A stretch of 64,000 nucleotides of DNA from the NCBI GenBank assembly GCA_964607655.1, contig CAZSKX010000001.1, positions 6,314 through 70,313 on the forward strand. The letters are read 5' to 3'. Position 1 is the first letter of the stretch, and each line of letters begins with the position of its first letter. Shown in pieces: positions 46,196 through 52,992 of this stretch. The translations under genes and the position numbers were made by a program. Under the pieces are notes generated by a model that saw only the letters and a list, made by a program, of their open reading frames with translations, had not been told where the DNA came from and made no database searches. The stretch comes from an uncultured Candidatus Saccharibacteria bacterium. GTDB lineage: Bacteria; Patescibacteriota; Minisyncoccia; Phycocordibacterales; Phycocordibacteraceae.

Positions 46196-46771
46196 ATGTT
46201 GATGATTCGATTTCAGCGCATCGGCCGGGCCAACGATCCGGCATTTCGCATTTCCGTCCTCGAGAAGGAGCGTGCCGCACAGGCAGGCAATATCGTTGAG
46301 CTGCTCGGTACATACAATCCTAAGAGCAAGGCCGTAACGCTTAACAAAGAGCGCGTCCTTCACTGGATCTCGAAGGGTGCTCAGCCGACCGACTCGATCC
46401 GTAACCTTCTCATTAACCAGAAGGTCCTCGAGGGCAAGAAGGTAAACGCCCTCCCGAAGAAGACGGTCCAGGTAGACGAGGAGGCTGTTGCAGCAGCGAA
46501 GGCCGCAGAAGAGAAGGCGGCAGCAGAGGCAAAGGCTGCGAAGGAGGCTGAAGAGGCAGCGGCCGCGGCTGCAGCAGCACCGGCTCCTGAAGCCGCTCCT
46601 GCCGTTGAGGAGACTCCAGCTCCTGAGGCTGCGCCAGTAGTAGAGGAGGCTCCGATGCCGACCGAGGCAGAGGTAGTCGCAGAGGCAGAGCCAGCTCCAG
46701 CAGAAGAGGCTCCTTTAGAAGCTGCACCCGCAGAGGAGGTCGCTGCGAAAGAAGAGACTCCAGCCGCTTAA
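46196..46771 (+). CDS. rpsP: 30S ribosomal protein S16 with a ~110-aa Ala/Glu/Pro-rich C-terminal extension
   Basis: MIRFQRIGRANDPAFRISV...GTYNP core, then AAAKAAEEKAAAEAKAAKEAEE...PAPEAAP. Confidence 0.8.
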   Translation: MLMIRFQRIGRANDPAFRISVLEKERAAQAGNIVELLGTYNPKSKAVTLNKERVLHWISKGAQPTDSIRNLLINQKVLEGKKVNALPKKTVQVDEEAVAAAKAAEEKAAAEAKAAKEAEEAAAAAAAAPAPEAAPAVEETPAPEAAPVVEEAPMPTEAEVVAEAEPAPAEEAPLEAAPAEEVAAKEETPAA

Positions 46772-46813
46772 GTCTCCGCGCCACGAGGCGCTTTACTGAT
46801 CTAATACGCTGAT

Positions 46814-47107
46814 ATGGAAACCGATCAAGCATTTCTCGAATACGCAGTGAAGGCACTTGTCGACCACCCTGAGTCGGTCGAGACGACCCGCTCTATCGAC
46901 CAGATGGGCGTACTCCTTACTCTCACCGTACACCCCGAAGACATGGGGAAGATCATCGGCAAGAGCGGCAAGACTGCCGAGGCGCTTCGCATTCTCCTAC
47001 GCGTAGTAGGGATGAAGGGCAATGCGCGCGTGAACCTCAAGATCAATGAGCCGGTGGGTGGTAAGCGCGACGCGAGCGCTCCCGCCGACGAGCCCTACAC
47101 CGACTAA
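46814..47107 (+). CDS. KH-domain RNA-binding protein (UPF0109/YlqC family)
   Basis: GKIIGKSGKTAEALRILLRVV KH motif. Conserved position between rpsP and trmD. Confidence 0.75.
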   Translation: METDQAFLEYAVKALVDHPESVETTRSIDQMGVLLTLTVHPEDMGKIIGKSGKTAEALRILLRVVGMKGNARVNLKINEPVGGKRDASAPADEPYTD

Positions 47108-47218
47108 CGCTCGAAGTTGTTGCTCGGCATGAGCGCGATATTTTCTTGCTAGAAAATTCGCTCTGCTCGGGCCGTCGCCCTGCGCAACTCATTTCTCACA
47201 ACAATATTCTCGCTCACT

Positions 47219-47887
47219 ATGAAATTCCATTTAGTCACCCTATTTCAAGAAGCGTGCGATGCGTACTTGAGCGCGTCGATCATTGGGCGTGCACGAGAGG
47301 AGAAGCAGATCAAAGTTGAGTACCAGAACCCGCGGGACTTTGTCGTGATTCCGAAGGACCGACCGAACCAGAGCTACAAGAAAGTAGACGATCGTCCGTA
47401 TGGCGGCGGCCCGGGGATGGTGATGACGGCTCTGCCCGTAGTGAAGGCGGTTGAGAAGGCGCTTAAGGGTAAAAAGCGGCCAGTGGTTATCTGGTTCTCA
47501 CCGAGTGGAAAACAATTTACGAACAAAGACGCAGACACGCTCGCGAAGAAATACACCGACGTAGTGCTCGTTTGTGGTCGTTATGAGGGGATCGATGAGC
47601 GGGCGAAGAAGCTTATTAAGACCCTCGCGCCGATCAAAGAATTTGCCGTGGGCGAGGCAGTCTATACGGGAGGGGAAGTGCCAGCCCTCGCGATCGTGGA
47701 CGCGGTCACGCGTCGCTTGCCGGGCGTGCTGGGCAAAGACGCGTCAGTCGAAGAGCGCCGCGTCGCCTCCTCGGCGGTCTACACGCGTCCCGAAACGATT
47801 TCATACAACAAGAAGAATTACCGCGTACCGAAGGTCCTCCAAACCGGCCATCATGCTGCCATTGACAAATGGCGTAAAGAGAGGTAA
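47219..47887 (+). CDS. trmD: tRNA (guanine37-N1)-methyltransferase
   Basis: Region GRYEGIDERA...VGEAVYTGGEVPALAIVDAVTRRLPGVLG resembles the TrmD core. Confidence 0.85.
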   Translation: MKFHLVTLFQEACDAYLSASIIGRAREEKQIKVEYQNPRDFVVIPKDRPNQSYKKVDDRPYGGGPGMVMTALPVVKAVEKALKGKKRPVVIWFSPSGKQFTNKDADTLAKKYTDVVLVCGRYEGIDERAKKLIKTLAPIKEFAVGEAVYTGGEVPALAIVDAVTRRLPGVLGKDASVEERRVASSAVYTRPETISYNKKNYRVPKVLQTGHHAAIDKWRKER

Positions 47888-47940
47888 TGTTTTAGGGGCC
47901 CTAGGAGACAATCACATTTAACCCTAGGGAGGAGGTCAGA

Positions 47941-48279
47941 ATGATTCTGTACATTGTCCCTCCGATTCGGCACAAACAAACCGGTAAAACGGTTCGGCTT
48001 ATCCTGTGGTGGCTGCGCGATCGCGTGATCATCAAGGACATGGACGCACCGGACTACCAAGGCCTGCATCTCTTTCCCTCGGGTCGTGAGATCGGTGGAG
48101 ATTCGAACCAGCGTCCCACCATCGATCTCGTGAGATTCCTTCCCAAGGGCATGGGATGGGAGATCACGGGTGAAACTGCGGAAGGGAAGGAATTCACGTT
48201 CGAGATTCGACATGACTTCGTCGAACAACACAGCATTTTCGCGGACGATCCTGTCTATGAAAAGCTGGCCGCGGCCTAG
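47941..48279 (+). CDS. Hypothetical protein (it occupies the position where rplS is usually found but is not L19)
   Basis: GGGAGGAGG SD. 112 aa. A terminator follows. Confidence 0.4.
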   Translation: MILYIVPPIRHKQTGKTVRLILWWLRDRVIIKDMDAPDYQGLHLFPSGREIGGDSNQRPTIDLVRFLPKGMGWEITGETAEGKEFTFEIRHDFVEQHSIFADDPVYEKLAAA

Positions 48280-48297
48280 CAGTAGTCGGCACCGACG

Positions 48298-48327
48298 CCG
48301 CCCCGGTATAAGTGGGCGGTTTTTTTA
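48298..48327 (+). terminator. Rho-independent terminator
   Basis: CCGCCC-CGGTATAAGT-GGGCGG followed by TTTTTTT. Confidence 0.7.
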
Positions 48328-48352
48328 TTTATGAATAGGAGTGAATAACTCC

Positions 48353-48450
48353 TTGACCAGAAAAACTTTAGCGCTATAACTAGCGCAGGAGTGCGGGAGA
48401 TGGTCTTTCGCAGTGGGAGTGGCCACTTAACTTTAAGGTGGCGTGGGGTA
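48353..48450 (+). promoter_or_regulatory. Cassette 1: sigma70-like promoter (TTGACC-16-TATAAC) plus conserved structured 5' leader (hairpin GCGGGAG-ATGGT-CTTTCGC, then a second hairpin with a TTTAA loop)
   Basis: The leader AGGAGTGCGGGAGATGGTCTTTCGCAGTGGGAG recurs in cassettes 2 and 3, with compensatory changes in the stem. Confidence 0.55.
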
Positions 48451-48454
48451 CGAT

Positions 48455-48649
48455 ATGCCAGCTAAGGTGCTGATGATGGGGTGTGCCGAAGGCGCGCAGA
48501 CGGTGGAGCTGAGTCCGATCGAGCGCGAGCTCAGGCGGCAGGAAGAGGAGTGCGAACGGCGCGCGGCGCGAAGAGCTGATGTGCCCGACGACTGGCCGAC
48601 CTTTCCGGCGGGCTGTCGCTGGGTCGGCCACGAGATGGAGCAGAACTGA
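48455..48649 (+). CDS. Small hypothetical protein (cassette 1, ~64 aa)
   Basis: AAGGTGG SD upstream (alternative GTG start at 48443). A terminator follows at 48702. Confidence 0.35.
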   Translation: MPAKVLMMGCAEGAQTVELSPIERELRRQEEECERRAARRADVPDDWPTFPAGCRWVGHEMEQN

Positions 48650-48701
48650 TCGGTTATTTCCCTAGCTGGCAGTCGTTCACTACGACGCTAGACCTTTACA
48701 A

Positions 48702-48745
48702 GATCCCGGTCGCACGTTGGTGCAACCGGGATCTCTATTTGTACA
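48702..48745 (+). terminator. Terminator of cassette 1
   Basis: GATCCCGGTCGCAC-GTTG-GTGCAACCGGGATC followed by TCTATTTGT. Confidence 0.6.
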
Positions 48746-48751
48746 GGGGGA

Positions 48752-48855
48752 TTGACGTATTTGAATAGATGAGTATAATATAACCCAGGAGTGCGAGAGA
48801 TGGTCTTTCGCAGCGGGAAGCGACGTCGTGCTTTAACGACGTGTGGGAGAGGAAG
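48752..48855 (+). promoter_or_regulatory. Cassette 2: promoter (TTGACG-16-TATAAT) plus conserved leader (hairpin GCGAGAG-ATGGT-CTTTCGC, second hairpin CGACGTCGTG-CTTTA-ACGACGTG)
   Basis: The leader AGGAGTGCGAGAGATGGTCTTTCGCAGCGGGAAG lies exactly 400 nt from the cassette 1 copy. Confidence 0.55.
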
Positions 48856-48866
48856 TGGCAAACAAA

Positions 48867-49217
48867 ATGTCTGAACTCACGATGAGGTGGATTGCGACGG
48901 AGATTCTTGCCGAGGCACAGCGGATTGGGACGCACTCCGAGAGGGTGCTCGCCAGCCCGATACTTCGTCGAGTGCTTCTCAATCGTCTGAACGAAGAGAA
49001 ACTCGTCACCGACGAGATGCTCGATAGCTCGAAGGATCTCGCGCGAGTCATCGCACGAAGGCGGGGCGTGTCCTTCGGCACGAAAGAAGAGGATGGCCAT
49101 CGCGCGCTGATCGCAGTTCGTCCTGAGAACTGGGAAGCAGGTCGGGGACGGCAGCGGATCGACAGATTCGTTGACGCTCATCTGGGTCTCCTCCCGAACT
49201 CCGGCGGGCGATCCTGA
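48867..49217 (+). CDS. Small hypothetical protein (cassette 2, 116 aa)
   Basis: GGGAGAGGAAGTGG SD before the ATG. A terminator follows. Confidence 0.4.
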   Translation: MSELTMRWIATEILAEAQRIGTHSERVLASPILRRVLLNRLNEEKLVTDEMLDSSKDLARVIARRRGVSFGTKEEDGHRALIAVRPENWEAGRGRQRIDRFVDAHLGLLPNSGGRS

Positions 49218-49220
49218 ACA

Positions 49221-49270
49221 GTGAAGAGGGGTCCCGACGGCGTAAGCCCGAGGGACCTTCACTTTTCTGT
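49221..49270 (+). terminator. Terminator of cassette 2
   Basis: GTGAAG-AGG-GGTCCCG...CGAGGGACC-TTCAC followed by TTTTCTG. Confidence 0.55.
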
Positions 49271-49345
49271 AGACGTCGAATATTCAGTGTGCATAATTAA
49301 CATGGGTGTGCGAAAGGTGGTCTTTCGCTCTTGGAGTTACGCTAC
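49270..49345 (+). promoter_or_regulatory. Cassette 3: promoter (TAGACG-16-CATAAT) plus conserved leader (hairpin GCGAAAG-GTGGT-CTTTCGC)
   Basis: Leader GTGTGCGAAAGGTGGTCTTTCGCTCTTGGAG. The stem is a perfect complement here and carries G-U wobbles in copies 1 and 2, which is covariation. Confidence 0.5.
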
Positions 49346-49370
49346 TTAAAGGCGAGAAAAGGAACACGTC

Positions 49371-49580
49371 GTGGCAGTTCGAAAAAGAGAGATGGGAGAA
49401 TACGTGAATCCGACCCGGGCGGAGATGCTCGCGGACAATGCCAAGCGCTTGGAGGAGCGGCTCAAGCAGCAGGCGAAGGAAGCTTCAGGAGGTCGTCCTC
49501 CTCGCAGCATCGACCGGTCGCCCGAGAGGGTGCGCAGAAGCGGCGTTATGGCCGCGAGCGTGAGAGAGGGTGGCTGCTAG
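49371..49580 (+). CDS. Small hypothetical Arg/Glu-rich protein (cassette 3, 62–69 aa; start ambiguous, GTG 49371 or ATG 49392)
   Basis: The ORF is followed by a terminator at 49600–49640. Confidence 0.3.
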   Translation: MAVRKREMGEYVNPTRAEMLADNAKRLEERLKQQAKEASGGRPPRSIDRSPERVRRSGVMAASVREGGC

Positions 49581-49599
49581 AGCCGCCCCAAGACCGAAG

Positions 49600-49640
49600 A
49601 GGGCCCAGGAGCTGTCATGCTCCCGGGCCCTTTCTTTGTC
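49600..49640 (+). terminator. Terminator of cassette 3
   Basis: AGGGCCCAGGA-GCTGTCATGC-TCCCGGGCCCT followed by TTCTTTG. Confidence 0.5.
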
Positions 49641-49812
49641 CCCAGGGACGCTTGCCTAGCCGAGAGCCCTTTGCTACACTCAGGGCACAAGATACGGGTG
49701 GGTCACGACGTGCGGCGAGTCTATACATAGGGATTTTTTAGAGAAACGTAAGCGGAAACGCCTTTTTCGTGCGTTTATGTGCGTATTATATTAACCACTT
49801 CACGGCAACCAC

Positions 49813-52992
<3,180 letters not shown>

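What the first reader, a model, noticed from the sequence alone, without database searches (positions are those of the whole stretch)
48340..49660. Three tandem promoter / conserved structured leader / small ORF / terminator cassettes
Three consecutive units, with promoter starts at 48353, 48752 and 49270, each carry a sigma70-like promoter (TTGACC-16-TATAAC, TTGACG-16-TATAAT, TAGACG-16-CATAAT). Each is followed at about +1 by a ~35-nt conserved leader with the pattern (A/G)G(G/T)GTGCG(G/A)(G/A)AG(A/G)TGGTCTTTCGC(A/T)(G/C)... The leader folds into a 7-bp hairpin with a 5-nt loop (ATGGT/GTGGT). The stem shows covariation: GCGGGAG, GCGAGAG and GCGAAAG all pair with CTTTCGC, via two, one and zero G-U wobbles respectively. 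A second hairpin with a TTTAA-type loop follows in each copy. Each leader drives a different, non-homologous small ORF (about 64, 116 and 62–69 aa, Arg/Glu-rich) and ends in its own intrinsic terminator. The leaders in cassettes 1 and 2 sit exactly 400 nt apart. Sequence conservation confined to the 5' UTR structure, while the ORFs differ, points to a shared cis-regulatory RNA element, a small-RNA family, or a protein-binding leader not obviously matching known motifs. It is not a CIRCE element.
Basis: promoters, motif, hairpins, ORFs and terminators are seen in sequence; the regulatory or structured-RNA interpretation is inference.
Basis: seen in the sequence. Interest (0 to 1): 0.8.

Follow-up and report, generated by a model that had tools for sequence, protein, structure and literature searches.

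The report
Shared two-hairpin leader on small genes
Three neighbouring small genes of an uncultured ultrasmall (Paceibacterota/CPR) bacterium each start with the same promoter-plus-two-hairpin RNA leader; it is conserved in the few known relatives and matches no known RNA family, so it is a real but narrowly distributed candidate control element whose function has not been tested.

Summary
The motif GTGCGRRAGRTGGTCTTTCGC occurs three times (48391, 48791, 49308; 0.01 expected by chance). Each copy lies 11-13 nt after a sigma70-type -10 box and ahead of a different small ORF with its own terminator. The host is a Paceibacterota (CPR) bacterium, and the cassettes fill a variable gap between trmD and rpoB. 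Ten related metagenome contigs gave 17 leaders in all, 12 of them with both hairpins outside the window.

- **Hairpin 1:** pairing is kept only through wobble-compatible changes in its 5' arm. Its 3' arm, UCUUUCGC, is almost invariant.
- **Hairpin 2:** the stem sequence changes completely but stays paired.

Both patterns indicate constraint at the RNA level. ORF1-3 are real genes that evolve fast and have no known relatives. The apparent upstream peptide (MVFRS) is not conserved.

I found no hit in Rfam, and none in 185,579 species genomes, phages, plasmids or elsewhere in the 64-kb window.

My best reading is a cis-acting 5'-UTR leader in which hairpin 1 is a common recognition site for a shared factor. 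The rivals are a passive mRNA stabiliser, a DNA operator and a conformational switch. I file it as a new member of a known kind. Interest is moderate.

The parts
48297..48326 (+). Terminator T0 of the upstream variable gene; left boundary of the cassette array
   Evidence: GC-rich hairpin followed by T7. The same sequence is conserved in L027, L132, L099 and L133 even though the gene before it differs.
48353..48380 (+). Promoter P1 (TTGACC-16-TATAAC)
   Evidence: Read in the sequence. 22 of 29 columns are invariant in 4 orthologous cassettes.
48393..48411 (+). Leader 1, hairpin 1: GCGGGAG-ATGGT-CTTTCGC
   Evidence: CM score for the whole leader is 68 bits.
48416..48442 (+). Leader 1: GGAG linker (48416-48419) and hairpin 2, GCCACTT-AACTTTA-AGGTGGC (48422-48442)
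   Evidence: dG is -8.2 kcal/mol. The SD-like GGGG follows at 48445-48448.
48455..48649 (+). ORF1, 64 aa, orphan
   Evidence: Orthologues in L027, L132 and L099 keep the same length and a conserved C-terminal PDDWPxFPxGCRWVGHE. No family hit.
48702..48742 (+). Terminator T1
   Evidence: -26.6 kcal/mol, z -5.1, U-rich tail.
48752..48779 (+). Promoter P2 (TTGACG-16-TATAAT, 11/12 to consensus)
   Evidence: Nearly identical in L027, L028, L031 and L099.
48793..48811 (+). Leader 2, hairpin 1: GCGAGAG-ATGGT-CTTTCGC
   Evidence: CM score for the whole leader is 75.7 bits.
48815..48842 (+). Leader 2: GGGAAGC linker and hairpin 2, ACGTCGT-GCTTTA-ACGACGT (48823-48842)
   Evidence: dG is -9.4 kcal/mol. 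SD GGGAG at 48845-48849.
48855..49217 (+). ORF2, 120 aa from the conserved GTG (116 aa from ATG 48867); small orphan family with paralogues
49221..49271 (+). Terminator T2
   Evidence: -26.3 kcal/mol, z -3.9, tail TTTTCTGT.
49270..49297 (+). Promoter P3 (TAGACG-16-CATAAT)
   Evidence: L132 has TGGACG-17-CATAAT at the same place. The promoter is absent in L027 and L028.
49310..49328 (+). Leader 3, hairpin 1: GCGAAAG-GTGGT-CTTTCGC (a perfect palindrome)
   Evidence: CM score for the whole leader is 56.3 bits.
49333..49354 (+). Leader 3: GGAG linker (49333-49336) and hairpin 2, CGCT-ACTTAAA-GGCG (49340-49354)
   Evidence: The orthologous hairpins are CGCC-ACTTACAA-GGCG (L027, L028) and CGCC-GCAA-GGCG (L132). 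SD AAGGAA at 49359-49364.
49371..49580 (+). ORF3, 69 aa from the conserved GTG; basic, orphan
   Evidence: Orthologues in L027, L028, L132 and L099 with conserved GEYxNPxRxEML and ERVRR. No family hit.
49597..49639 (+). Terminator T3
   Evidence: -30.8 kcal/mol, z -5.0, tail TTTCTTTGT. Conserved with stem changes in L027 and L099.

Best explanation
The three elements are the 5' untranslated leaders of three separate, strongly promoted, single-gene mRNAs. These sit in a variable gene islet between trmD and rpoB of a Paceibacterota (CPR) bacterium.

Each leader folds into two hairpins. Hairpin 1 has a 7-bp stem and a 5-nt loop and begins about 5 nt after the predicted transcription start. A purine-rich GGAG linker follows. 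Hairpin 2 ends 2-5 nt before the Shine-Dalgarno sequence.

I propose that the leader acts in cis at the RNA level. Hairpin 1 has a near-invariant 3' arm and is shared by non-homologous genes. I read it as a common recognition hairpin for one trans-acting factor, most likely a protein, which sets the translation and/or lifetime of all these mRNAs together. Hairpin 2 is constrained in shape only. It would keep the ribosome-binding site exposed and, with the 5'-proximal hairpin 1, shield the 5' end.

Shown: the elements exist, they are conserved, the pairing is constrained on the sense strand, and their position relative to the promoter and SD is fixed. Inferred: the transcription start, the existence and nature of the factor, and the direction of the effect.
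For: **Non-chance and local.** There are three copies against 0.01 expected. The covariance model finds only these three in 64 kb, at 56-76 bits, with the next hit at 8 bits. In 136 kb of window plus relatives, the hits fall in the trmD-rpoB gap, apart from one 12-bit (E 0.066) match on the minus strand of L027 that I take as spurious.

**Conservation in relatives.** Twelve further two-hairpin leaders occur in L027, L028, L030, L031, L099, L132, L135 and L136. In cassette 1 orthologues the promoter (76% invariant columns) and the leader (60%) are more conserved than the ORF (44%).

**RNA-level constraint.**
- Hairpin 1 is 94.9% paired across 14 copies.
- Variation at its three middle pairs is almost entirely A-U to G-U on the 5' side.
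- L135 has a U.G pair where the others have C-G.
- L030_c2 and L136 have lost one nucleotide in each arm (GCAGAG/CTTTGC).
- L030_c1 carries a bulge.
- These changes keep an RNA helix on the + strand but would degrade a DNA palindrome or alter its spacing.
- Hairpin 2 has changes on both sides in 5 of 7 pairs. Whole-structure pairing is 86% against 77% in shuffles (0/500) and 40-57% in slid controls.
- The hairpin 2 stems are unrelated in sequence: GCCACUU, ACGUCGU, UAUCGU, GCCGCAU, CGCC, UCGUCG.

**Sequence-specific constraint beyond structure.** The 3' arm UCUUUCGC is identical in 13 of 15 copies. This holds even though the paralogous cassettes share no other alignable sequence (spacers, hairpin 2 stems, ORFs).

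**Fixed geometry.** There are 11-13 nt from the -10 box to hairpin 1, and 12-20 nt from hairpin 2 to the start codon, with the SD directly after hairpin 2.

**The genes are real.**

**A precedent for the mechanism.** HTH proteins Aca2 and Aca1 bind conserved 5'-UTR hairpins of operons that encode small, fast-evolving proteins (PMC13551039, read).
Against: - There is no transcript or transcription-start data.
- Only about ten closely related metagenome contigs are available, and many leaders are orthologous, so the counts are not independent.
- Hairpin 1 shows almost no true double (compensatory) substitutions. The pairs counted as changed on both sides come from the most divergent copies and depend on the alignment.
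- No candidate binding protein is identified. ORF2, the only cassette protein with a fold hint, is absent from the gap in L099 and L132, where hairpin 1 is intact.
- One relative (L133/L134) has no such leader in the gap, and another (L127) has a 5' hairpin of a different sequence.
- Recombination between leader copies does occur (L099), so some homogenisation of hairpin 1 cannot be excluded.
Confidence: 0.4

Rival explanations
1. Passive 5' stabiliser and translation-insulator leader. The 5'-proximal hairpin, the SD-like GGAG and hairpin 2 would simply protect the mRNA 5' end from 5'-end-dependent decay and keep the true SD open. No dedicated trans factor is involved.
For: The layout is hairpin - single strand - hairpin - single strand with SD, set behind near-consensus promoters and closed by strong terminators. 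The GGAG has no start codon at SD distance. The SD window and start are mostly unpaired in folds of full leaders. This matches the architecture of the ompA 5' UTR, the aprE 5' stem-loop and STAB-SD, as cited in the review PMC3997798. Relative L127 has a 5' hairpin of different sequence at the same position.
Against: A purely structural element should drift in sequence as hairpin 2 does. Instead the hairpin 1 3' arm is invariant across paralogous cassettes whose other sequences are unalignable. Wobble-compatible C-to-U or U-to-C changes never appear in that arm. The predicted 5' single-stranded tail of about 5 nt is not 'terminal'.
Confidence: 0.2
2. DNA operator. The inverted repeat GCGAAAG-N5-CTTTCGC at about +5 to +24 would be bound by a dimeric repressor, possibly the ORF2 family protein. 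It might additionally act on the RNA, as Aca2 does on acr operons or HrcA/CIRCE on chaperone operons.
Confidence: 0.15
3. Conformational riboregulator. The invariant 3' arm (UCUUUCGCA) would alternate between the 5' arm (hairpin 1, SD free, ON) and the purine tract just after hairpin 2 that contains the SD (OFF). The state would be set by temperature, 5'-end decay or a ligand of the 5' arm.
For: In cassette-2-type leaders, UCUUUCGCA is complementary over 9 bp to UGUGGGAGA/UGUGAGGGA at the SD. RNAfold picks that alternative as the minimum-energy fold in L027_c2 and L028_c2. L132_c3 repeats GCGAAAGG at the SD. Mean duplex energy is -7.7 against -6.2 kcal/mol for shuffled SD regions, aggregate 0.001. 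A strand with two partners would explain why only the 3' arm is invariant.
Against: Individual leaders are not significant (0.07-0.77). The copies are related, so the aggregate is inflated. Cassette-1-type leaders and the L030_c2/L136 leaders have only weak alternative pairing. Any pyrimidine-rich arm will partly match any SD. Hairpin 1 is the more stable partner in most copies.
Confidence: 0.12
4. Upstream leader peptide. The ATG/GTG in the hairpin 1 loop would start a conserved short ORF (MVFRS...) that regulates the downstream gene.
For: In the window all three copies read M-V-F-R-S, with AGT, AGC and TCT all coding Ser, and AGGAG lies 7 nt upstream in copies 1 and 2.
Against: The loop has no start codon in L030_c1 (TAGAT), L135 (ATAGG), L030_c2 (CGGGT) and L136 (CTGGT). 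A 1-nt insertion shifts the frame in L027_c1. The AGGAG is replaced by AGTAG, CAGAT or CAGATA. Codon third positions in the 3' arm never vary.
Confidence: 0.01

Closest known systems
Aca2/Aca1-bound 5'-UTR hairpins of anti-CRISPR (acr-aca) operons (PMC13551039)
   Same: Short conserved hairpin(s) lie between a strong promoter and the ribosome-binding site. The same motif is shared by adjacent operons that encode small, fast-evolving, non-homologous proteins. In that system the hairpin is read by a small helical nucleic-acid-binding protein.
   Different: This locus is chromosomal and sits between core genes, not in a phage. No HTH family is detectable. The repeat lies downstream of the -10 box rather than overlapping the promoter. 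The candidate protein (ORF2) is not always present. Binding is untested.
5' mRNA stabiliser leaders: ompA 5' UTR (two hairpins), B. subtilis aprE 5' stem-loop, cryIIIA STAB-SD (primary papers as listed in the review PMC3997798; their content is recalled from memory)
   Same: A 5'-proximal hairpin, a single-stranded segment with an SD-like purine run that is not used for initiation, and a second hairpin next to the true SD. All are found on highly expressed monocistronic mRNAs.
   Different: Those elements are not sequence-conserved across unrelated genes. Here the hairpin 1 3' arm is invariant in non-homologous cassettes. The transcription start and any effect on half-life are not known here.
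CIRCE / HrcA operator (from memory)
   Same: An inverted repeat between the promoter and the start codon of several operons. It is said to act as DNA and to influence the mRNA.
   Different: The sequence and geometry differ (9-bp arms and 9-nt spacer, TTAGCACTC-N9-GAGTGCTAA, against 7-bp arms and a 5-nt spacer). The downstream genes are not chaperones. The arms here are conserved asymmetrically.
Orphan cis-regulatory RNA motifs found by comparative genomics (the Rfam 'Cis-reg; leader' type)
   Same: A small structured 5'-UTR motif defined by conservation and covariation, with no known ligand.
   Different: It matches none of the 4227 Rfam 15 families. The distribution is very narrow, limited to one genus-level CPR clade and one genomic gap.

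Membership tests
Any Rfam 15 family | Covariance-model score at or above the gathering threshold | tested here: not met
   Only one tRNA is found in the window. At E<=10 on 48250-49850 no hit overlaps a leader.
CIRCE (HrcA operator) | 9-bp inverted repeat TTAGCACTC-N9-GAGTGCTAA upstream of groES/dnaK-type genes (consensus recalled from memory) | tested here: not met
   The repeat is GCGRRAG-N5-CTTTCGC. The downstream ORFs have no chaperone or any other family hit.
Intrinsic-terminator attenuator leader | A leader hairpin followed directly by a U-run, with an alternative antiterminator | tested here: not met
   Hairpin 1 is followed by AGUGGGAG and hairpin 2 by GUGGGG or GUGGGAG. Neither has a U-run.
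Leader-peptide (uORF) control | A conserved start codon, reading frame and peptide | tested here: not met
   The start codon is missing in 4 copies and the frame is shifted in L027_c1.
5' stabiliser hairpin / STAB-SD type leader | A hairpin at or within a few nt of the 5' end | not testable with these tools
   The start site is unmapped. From the -10 position the hairpin would begin at about +5 or +6.
5' stabiliser hairpin / STAB-SD type leader | An SD-like sequence in the UTR that is not followed by a start codon at initiation distance | tested here: met
   GGAG, GGGAG or GGAAG lies 3-6 nt after hairpin 1 in 15 of 17 leaders. The next start codon is more than 30 nt away, beyond hairpin 2.
5' stabiliser hairpin / STAB-SD type leader | It increases mRNA half-life | not testable with these tools
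   This needs decay measurements.
Palindromic DNA operator of a dimeric repressor (including Aca-type) | Both half-sites conserved alike, at fixed spacing | tested here: not met
   The 5' arm varies (GGGAG, GAGAG, GAAAG, GGAGG, a bulge, U for C). The 3' arm is invariant. The loop is 5-7 nt.
Palindromic DNA operator of a dimeric repressor (including Aca-type) | A cognate HTH regulator encoded alongside | tested here: inconclusive
Riboswitch | A conserved ligand-binding core (junction or pseudoknot) upstream of genes of one pathway | tested here: inconclusive
   There are only two simple hairpins. A possible linker-loop pairing, GAG[U/C] with [A/G]CUU, is seen in about 13 of 17 leaders, but it leaves a 1-nt connecting loop. 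The downstream genes are orphans.
Repetitive extragenic / mobile element (REP, MITE, integron attC) | Many dispersed copies, either orientation, terminal repeats or an integrase | tested here: not met
   There are three copies in 64 kb. All are on the sense strand in 5' UTRs at a fixed distance from promoters. No integrase lies in the gap.

The most novel reading that the evidence does not exclude
Hairpin 1 could be the RNA operator, or a dual DNA/RNA operator, of a dedicated small regulator, possibly the ORF2 family protein. That regulator would coordinate a hypervariable chromosomal islet of fast-evolving orphan small proteins in an episymbiotic CPR bacterium. This would be an Aca-like control circuit outside phages, and the islet proteins would be host-interaction or anti-defence effectors.
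Probability: 0.12. Interest if true: 0.7.

Novelty: new member of a known kind. Interest (0 to 1): 0.4.

Why it matters
Almost nothing is known about gene regulation in Patescibacteria (CPR). They have very few recognisable regulators and no genetics for most lineages. This leader is small, well defined and present in front of several non-homologous genes, so it gives a concrete handle on a regulon in such an organism.

The unusual pattern in hairpin 1 (an invariant 3' arm and a 5' arm that changes only by wobble) makes clear predictions that can be tested with in-vitro binding and reporter assays. It also flags the trmD-rpoB gap as a variable islet of highly expressed, fast-evolving orphan proteins.

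The known distribution is very narrow, about ten contigs of one clade, which limits its general importance unless a full-genome search widens the regulon.

Tried and rejected
**Leader peptide MVFRS.** It looks attractive in the window because of the three synonymous Ser codons. The relatives reject it.

**Collection scans for the motif.**
- Genome contigs, with the inner stem left free: 24 hits, all single, in random taxa and mostly coding, at about the expected chance level.
- Viral contigs: 2 chance hits.
- Metagenome contigs, strict pattern: 95 hits, of which only L099 is real.
- Metagenome contigs, by ORF2-family protein patterns: none.

**Known families and mobile elements.**
- Rfam at gathering score and at E<=10: nothing.
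- Pfam, PHROGs, NCBIfam and PADLOC for ORF1-3, orf112 and the relatives' gap ORFs: nothing meaningful.
- PDB by sequence profile: E>=0.4.
- BFVD fold search: nothing at E<=0.001.
- afdb50 was unavailable.
- BLAST of the whole array against phages and plasmids, and tblastn of ORF2 against phages: no match.

**Structural ideas kept only as ideas.**
- Alternative pairing of the 3' arm with the SD region has weak support.
- The linker-loop pseudoknot is suggestive: U-A in most copies, C-G in the window, L027 and L028 cassette-2 leaders, and both partners lost in L099_c3 and L132_c3. However, the connecting loop would be only 1 nt, and the pattern may reflect a single evolutionary event.
- A search for a trans partner of the 3' arm in the window found nothing.

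**Source record.** The look-up of encoding contigs with the window's own TrmD found no record. P0005 shows that the source is an NCBI contig of 464,554 nt, which I could not read beyond the window.
Full report
**1. What is in the window**

The region 48340-49660 contains three head-to-tail transcription units on the + strand. Each unit has the following parts:
- a sigma70-type promoter: TTGACC-16-TATAAC at 48353, TTGACG-16-TATAAT at 48752, and TAGACG-16-CATAAT at 49270. The scan tool finds the last two, with 0.8 expected in 2.2 kb;
- a conserved 21-mer, GTGCGRRAGRTGGTCTTTCGC, lying 11-13 nt after the -10 box. It gives three exact matches against 0.01 expected by chance;
- a second hairpin;
- a Shine-Dalgarno sequence;
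- a small ORF;
- a strong hairpin with a U-rich tail, at -26 to -31 kcal/mol and z -3.9 to -5.1.

**2. Organism and locus**

The array lies between rpsP-khpA-trmD (46196-47887; Pfam) and rpoB-rpoC (49813 onward). TrmD homologues that carry a source name are from Candidatus Paceibacterota, Parcubacteria or Kaiserbacteria. An identical TrmD sits on an NCBI contig of 464,554 nt. The host is thus a CPR/Patescibacteria bacterium with 56% G+C.

**3. Distribution**

- **No known family.** No Rfam 15 family matches, either at gathering score over the whole window or at E<=10 over the region.
- **No further copies in the window.** A covariance model built from 14 copies and run without filters over the 64 kb finds only the three known leaders, at 56-76 bits. 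The next hit scores 8 bits.
- **No copies in species genomes.** A pattern that left the inner stem free was scanned over 185,579 species genomes. It gave 24 single hits in unrelated taxa, mostly inside coding sequence. That is about what chance predicts.
- **No viral copies.** Viral contigs gave two chance hits.
- **One metagenome copy.** The strict pattern gave 95 hits in metagenome contigs, of which only one (L099) is real.
- **More relatives through proteins.** Relatives were reached through ORF2 homologues and TrmD homologues, whose contigs I then fetched.

Leaders occur in L027, L028/L029, L030 (the same sequence as L129-L131), L031, L099, L132, L135 and L136. They are always in the trmD-rpoB gap and always on the sense strand. 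The gap's gene content varies:
- ORF2 is missing in L099 and L132.
- In L099 the cassette 2 promoter and hairpin 1 are joined to ORF3.
- In L027 and L028, cassette 3 has lost the promoter and hairpin 1 but keeps GGAG and hairpin 2.
- L030, L135 and L136 carry ORF2 paralogues.
- L133/L134 has no such leader.
- L127 has a 5' hairpin of different sequence.

**4. The ORFs are genes**

- **ORF2:** it has homologues at 72-82% identity. Differences by codon position are 14/12/40. A conserved GTG start follows GGGAG.
- **ORF1 and ORF3:** they keep frame and length and have conserved motifs. They are only about 45-60% identical between genomes whose TrmD is 88-93% identical. They evolve fast.
- **No known family:** none has a Pfam, PHROG, NCBIfam or PADLOC match, nor a phage or plasmid match.
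- **Size of the ORF2 family:** it has 7 members among 5.8 billion clustered proteins, and 12 cluster representatives at E<=0.001 among 1.84 billion. About nine of those twelve look real.

**5. RNA or DNA?**

Hairpin 1 forms a standard pair in 94.9% of cells across 14 copies. Its variation is very one-sided.
- **5' arm:** it reads GCGGGAG, GCGAGAG, GCGAAAG, GCGGAGG or GUGAAAG, or GCGAG(G)AG with a bulge. Every substitution is A-to-G opposite U, or C-to-U opposite G. All of these keep an RNA pair on the + strand.
- **3' arm:** CUUUCGC is unchanged in 13 of 15 copies.
- **Paralogue leaders:** L030_c2 and L136 have lost one nucleotide from each arm, giving GCAGAG/CUUUGC.

A symmetric DNA operator would not be expected to treat its two halves so differently, or to tolerate bulges and 5-7-nt spacers.

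Hairpin 2 is present in every leader, with unrelated stems (GCCACUU, ACGUCGU, UAUCGU, GCCGCAU, CGCC, UCGUCG). Five of its seven pairs have changes on both sides. Whole-structure pairing, the number of pairs changed on both sides and the covariation score exceed all 500 shuffles and all slid controls.

The copies are related, so these numbers overstate independence. Even so, the direction is clear: the leader is constrained as RNA on the sense strand. The extra constraint on the 3' arm and loop of hairpin 1 acts on the sequence itself. The paralogous cassettes share nothing else that can be aligned, so common descent does not explain it.

**6. Rejected reading: an upstream peptide**

In the window, the loop ATG/GTG opens M-V-F-R-S in all three copies. 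In relatives the start codon is absent from four copies, the frame shifts in one, the upstream AGGAG is not conserved, and codon third positions never vary.

**7. Mechanism**

What is shown is the geometry: promoter, about 5 nt, hairpin 1, 3-6 nt, GGAG, hairpin 2, 2-5 nt, SD, start. The SD and start are mostly unpaired in folds of full leaders.

My best inference is a cis-acting RNA leader in which hairpin 1 is read sequence-specifically by a shared factor (0.4). The rivals are:
- **Passive 5' stabiliser/insulator of the ompA/aprE/STAB-SD kind (0.2).** The references are listed in PMC3997798. This does not explain the sequence invariance.
- **DNA operator, possibly dual DNA/RNA as for Aca2 (0.15).** See PMC13551039. 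It is weakened by the asymmetry of the arms and by the absence of ORF2 in L099 and L132.
- **Conformational switch (0.12).** The 3' arm would alternatively pair with the SD-proximal purine tract. The complementarity is 9 bp in cassette-2-type leaders and is the minimum-energy fold in L027_c2 and L028_c2. Mean duplex energy is -7.7 against -6.2 kcal/mol in shuffles, but individual leaders are not significant.

A possible pairing of the linker GAG[U/C] with the hairpin 2 loop [A/G]CUU is consistent in about 13 of 17 leaders. It includes a U-A to C-G switch. It would leave a 1-nt connecting loop, though, so I keep it only as an idea.

**8. Verdict**

This is a real, conserved, previously undescribed two-hairpin 5'-UTR leader. 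It is confined, as far as the available data show, to one small CPR clade and one genomic gap. It is a new member of the known kind 'structured cis-acting mRNA leader'. Function and mechanism remain untested. I rate the interest as moderate: the element is clean and testable and sits in a poorly understood group of organisms, but its known distribution is very narrow.

Noticed in passing
window 49655-49812: rpoB has its own conserved promoter (TTGCCT-17-TACACT with a TGg extended -10) and a conserved leader of about 125 nt (AGATACGGGTGGGT ... AAGCGGAAACGCC-TTTTT ... CAACCACATG). It is shared by L027, L132, L030, L133 and L127. It contains an invariant GCG-GAAA-CGC hairpin followed by a U-run, which may be an attenuator. 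There is no Rfam hit.
   Followed up: partly
window 47888-49812 and the same gap in L027, L030, L099, L127, L132, L133, L135, L136: The trmD-rpoB gap is a variable islet. The gene directly after trmD differs between close relatives (window orf112 at 47941-48279; 89-aa, about 115-aa, 126-aa or ORF2-paralogue genes elsewhere). Terminator T0 and the rpoB leader stay conserved as the boundaries.
   Followed up: partly
L099 (minus strand) 280-460; L027 3760-3830; L028 715-790: There is evidence of recombination at the leaders. In L099 the cassette 2 promoter and hairpin 1 are fused to ORF3, and ORF2 is deleted. In L027 and L028, cassette 3 lacks the promoter and hairpin 1 but keeps GGAG and hairpin 2, so ORF3 is probably read through from ORF2 there.
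   Followed up: partly
L099 (minus strand) about 1230-1310 and L133 2690-2775: A different conserved leader, with long-range GTCGC...GGCGAC pairing, precedes the about 115-aa first gap gene in these two relatives.
   Followed up: no
window 48371-48386: The palindrome GCGCTATAACTAGCGC overlaps the -10 box of cassette 1. It is kept in L132, imperfect in L027 and lost in L099.
   Followed up: no
window 46196-46771: Ribosomal protein S16 carries a long Ala/Pro/Glu-rich C-terminal extension (191 aa in total).
   Followed up: no
L036, L038, L040, L043, L059, L060, L064 and other loci: The sequence GCGAAAGATGGTCTTTCGC also occurs inside arrays of 'ggcatgtttcg'-type repeats in human-gut metagenome contigs. 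This is an unrelated repeat family hit by chance.
   Followed up: no
L127 6700-6760: A more distant relative (TrmD 85% identical) has a promoter followed at once by a 10-bp hairpin of different sequence (CGACACGAGA-AGTG-TCTCTTGTCG) ahead of an uncalled ORF of about 70 aa. It may be a diverged counterpart of hairpin 1.
   Followed up: no
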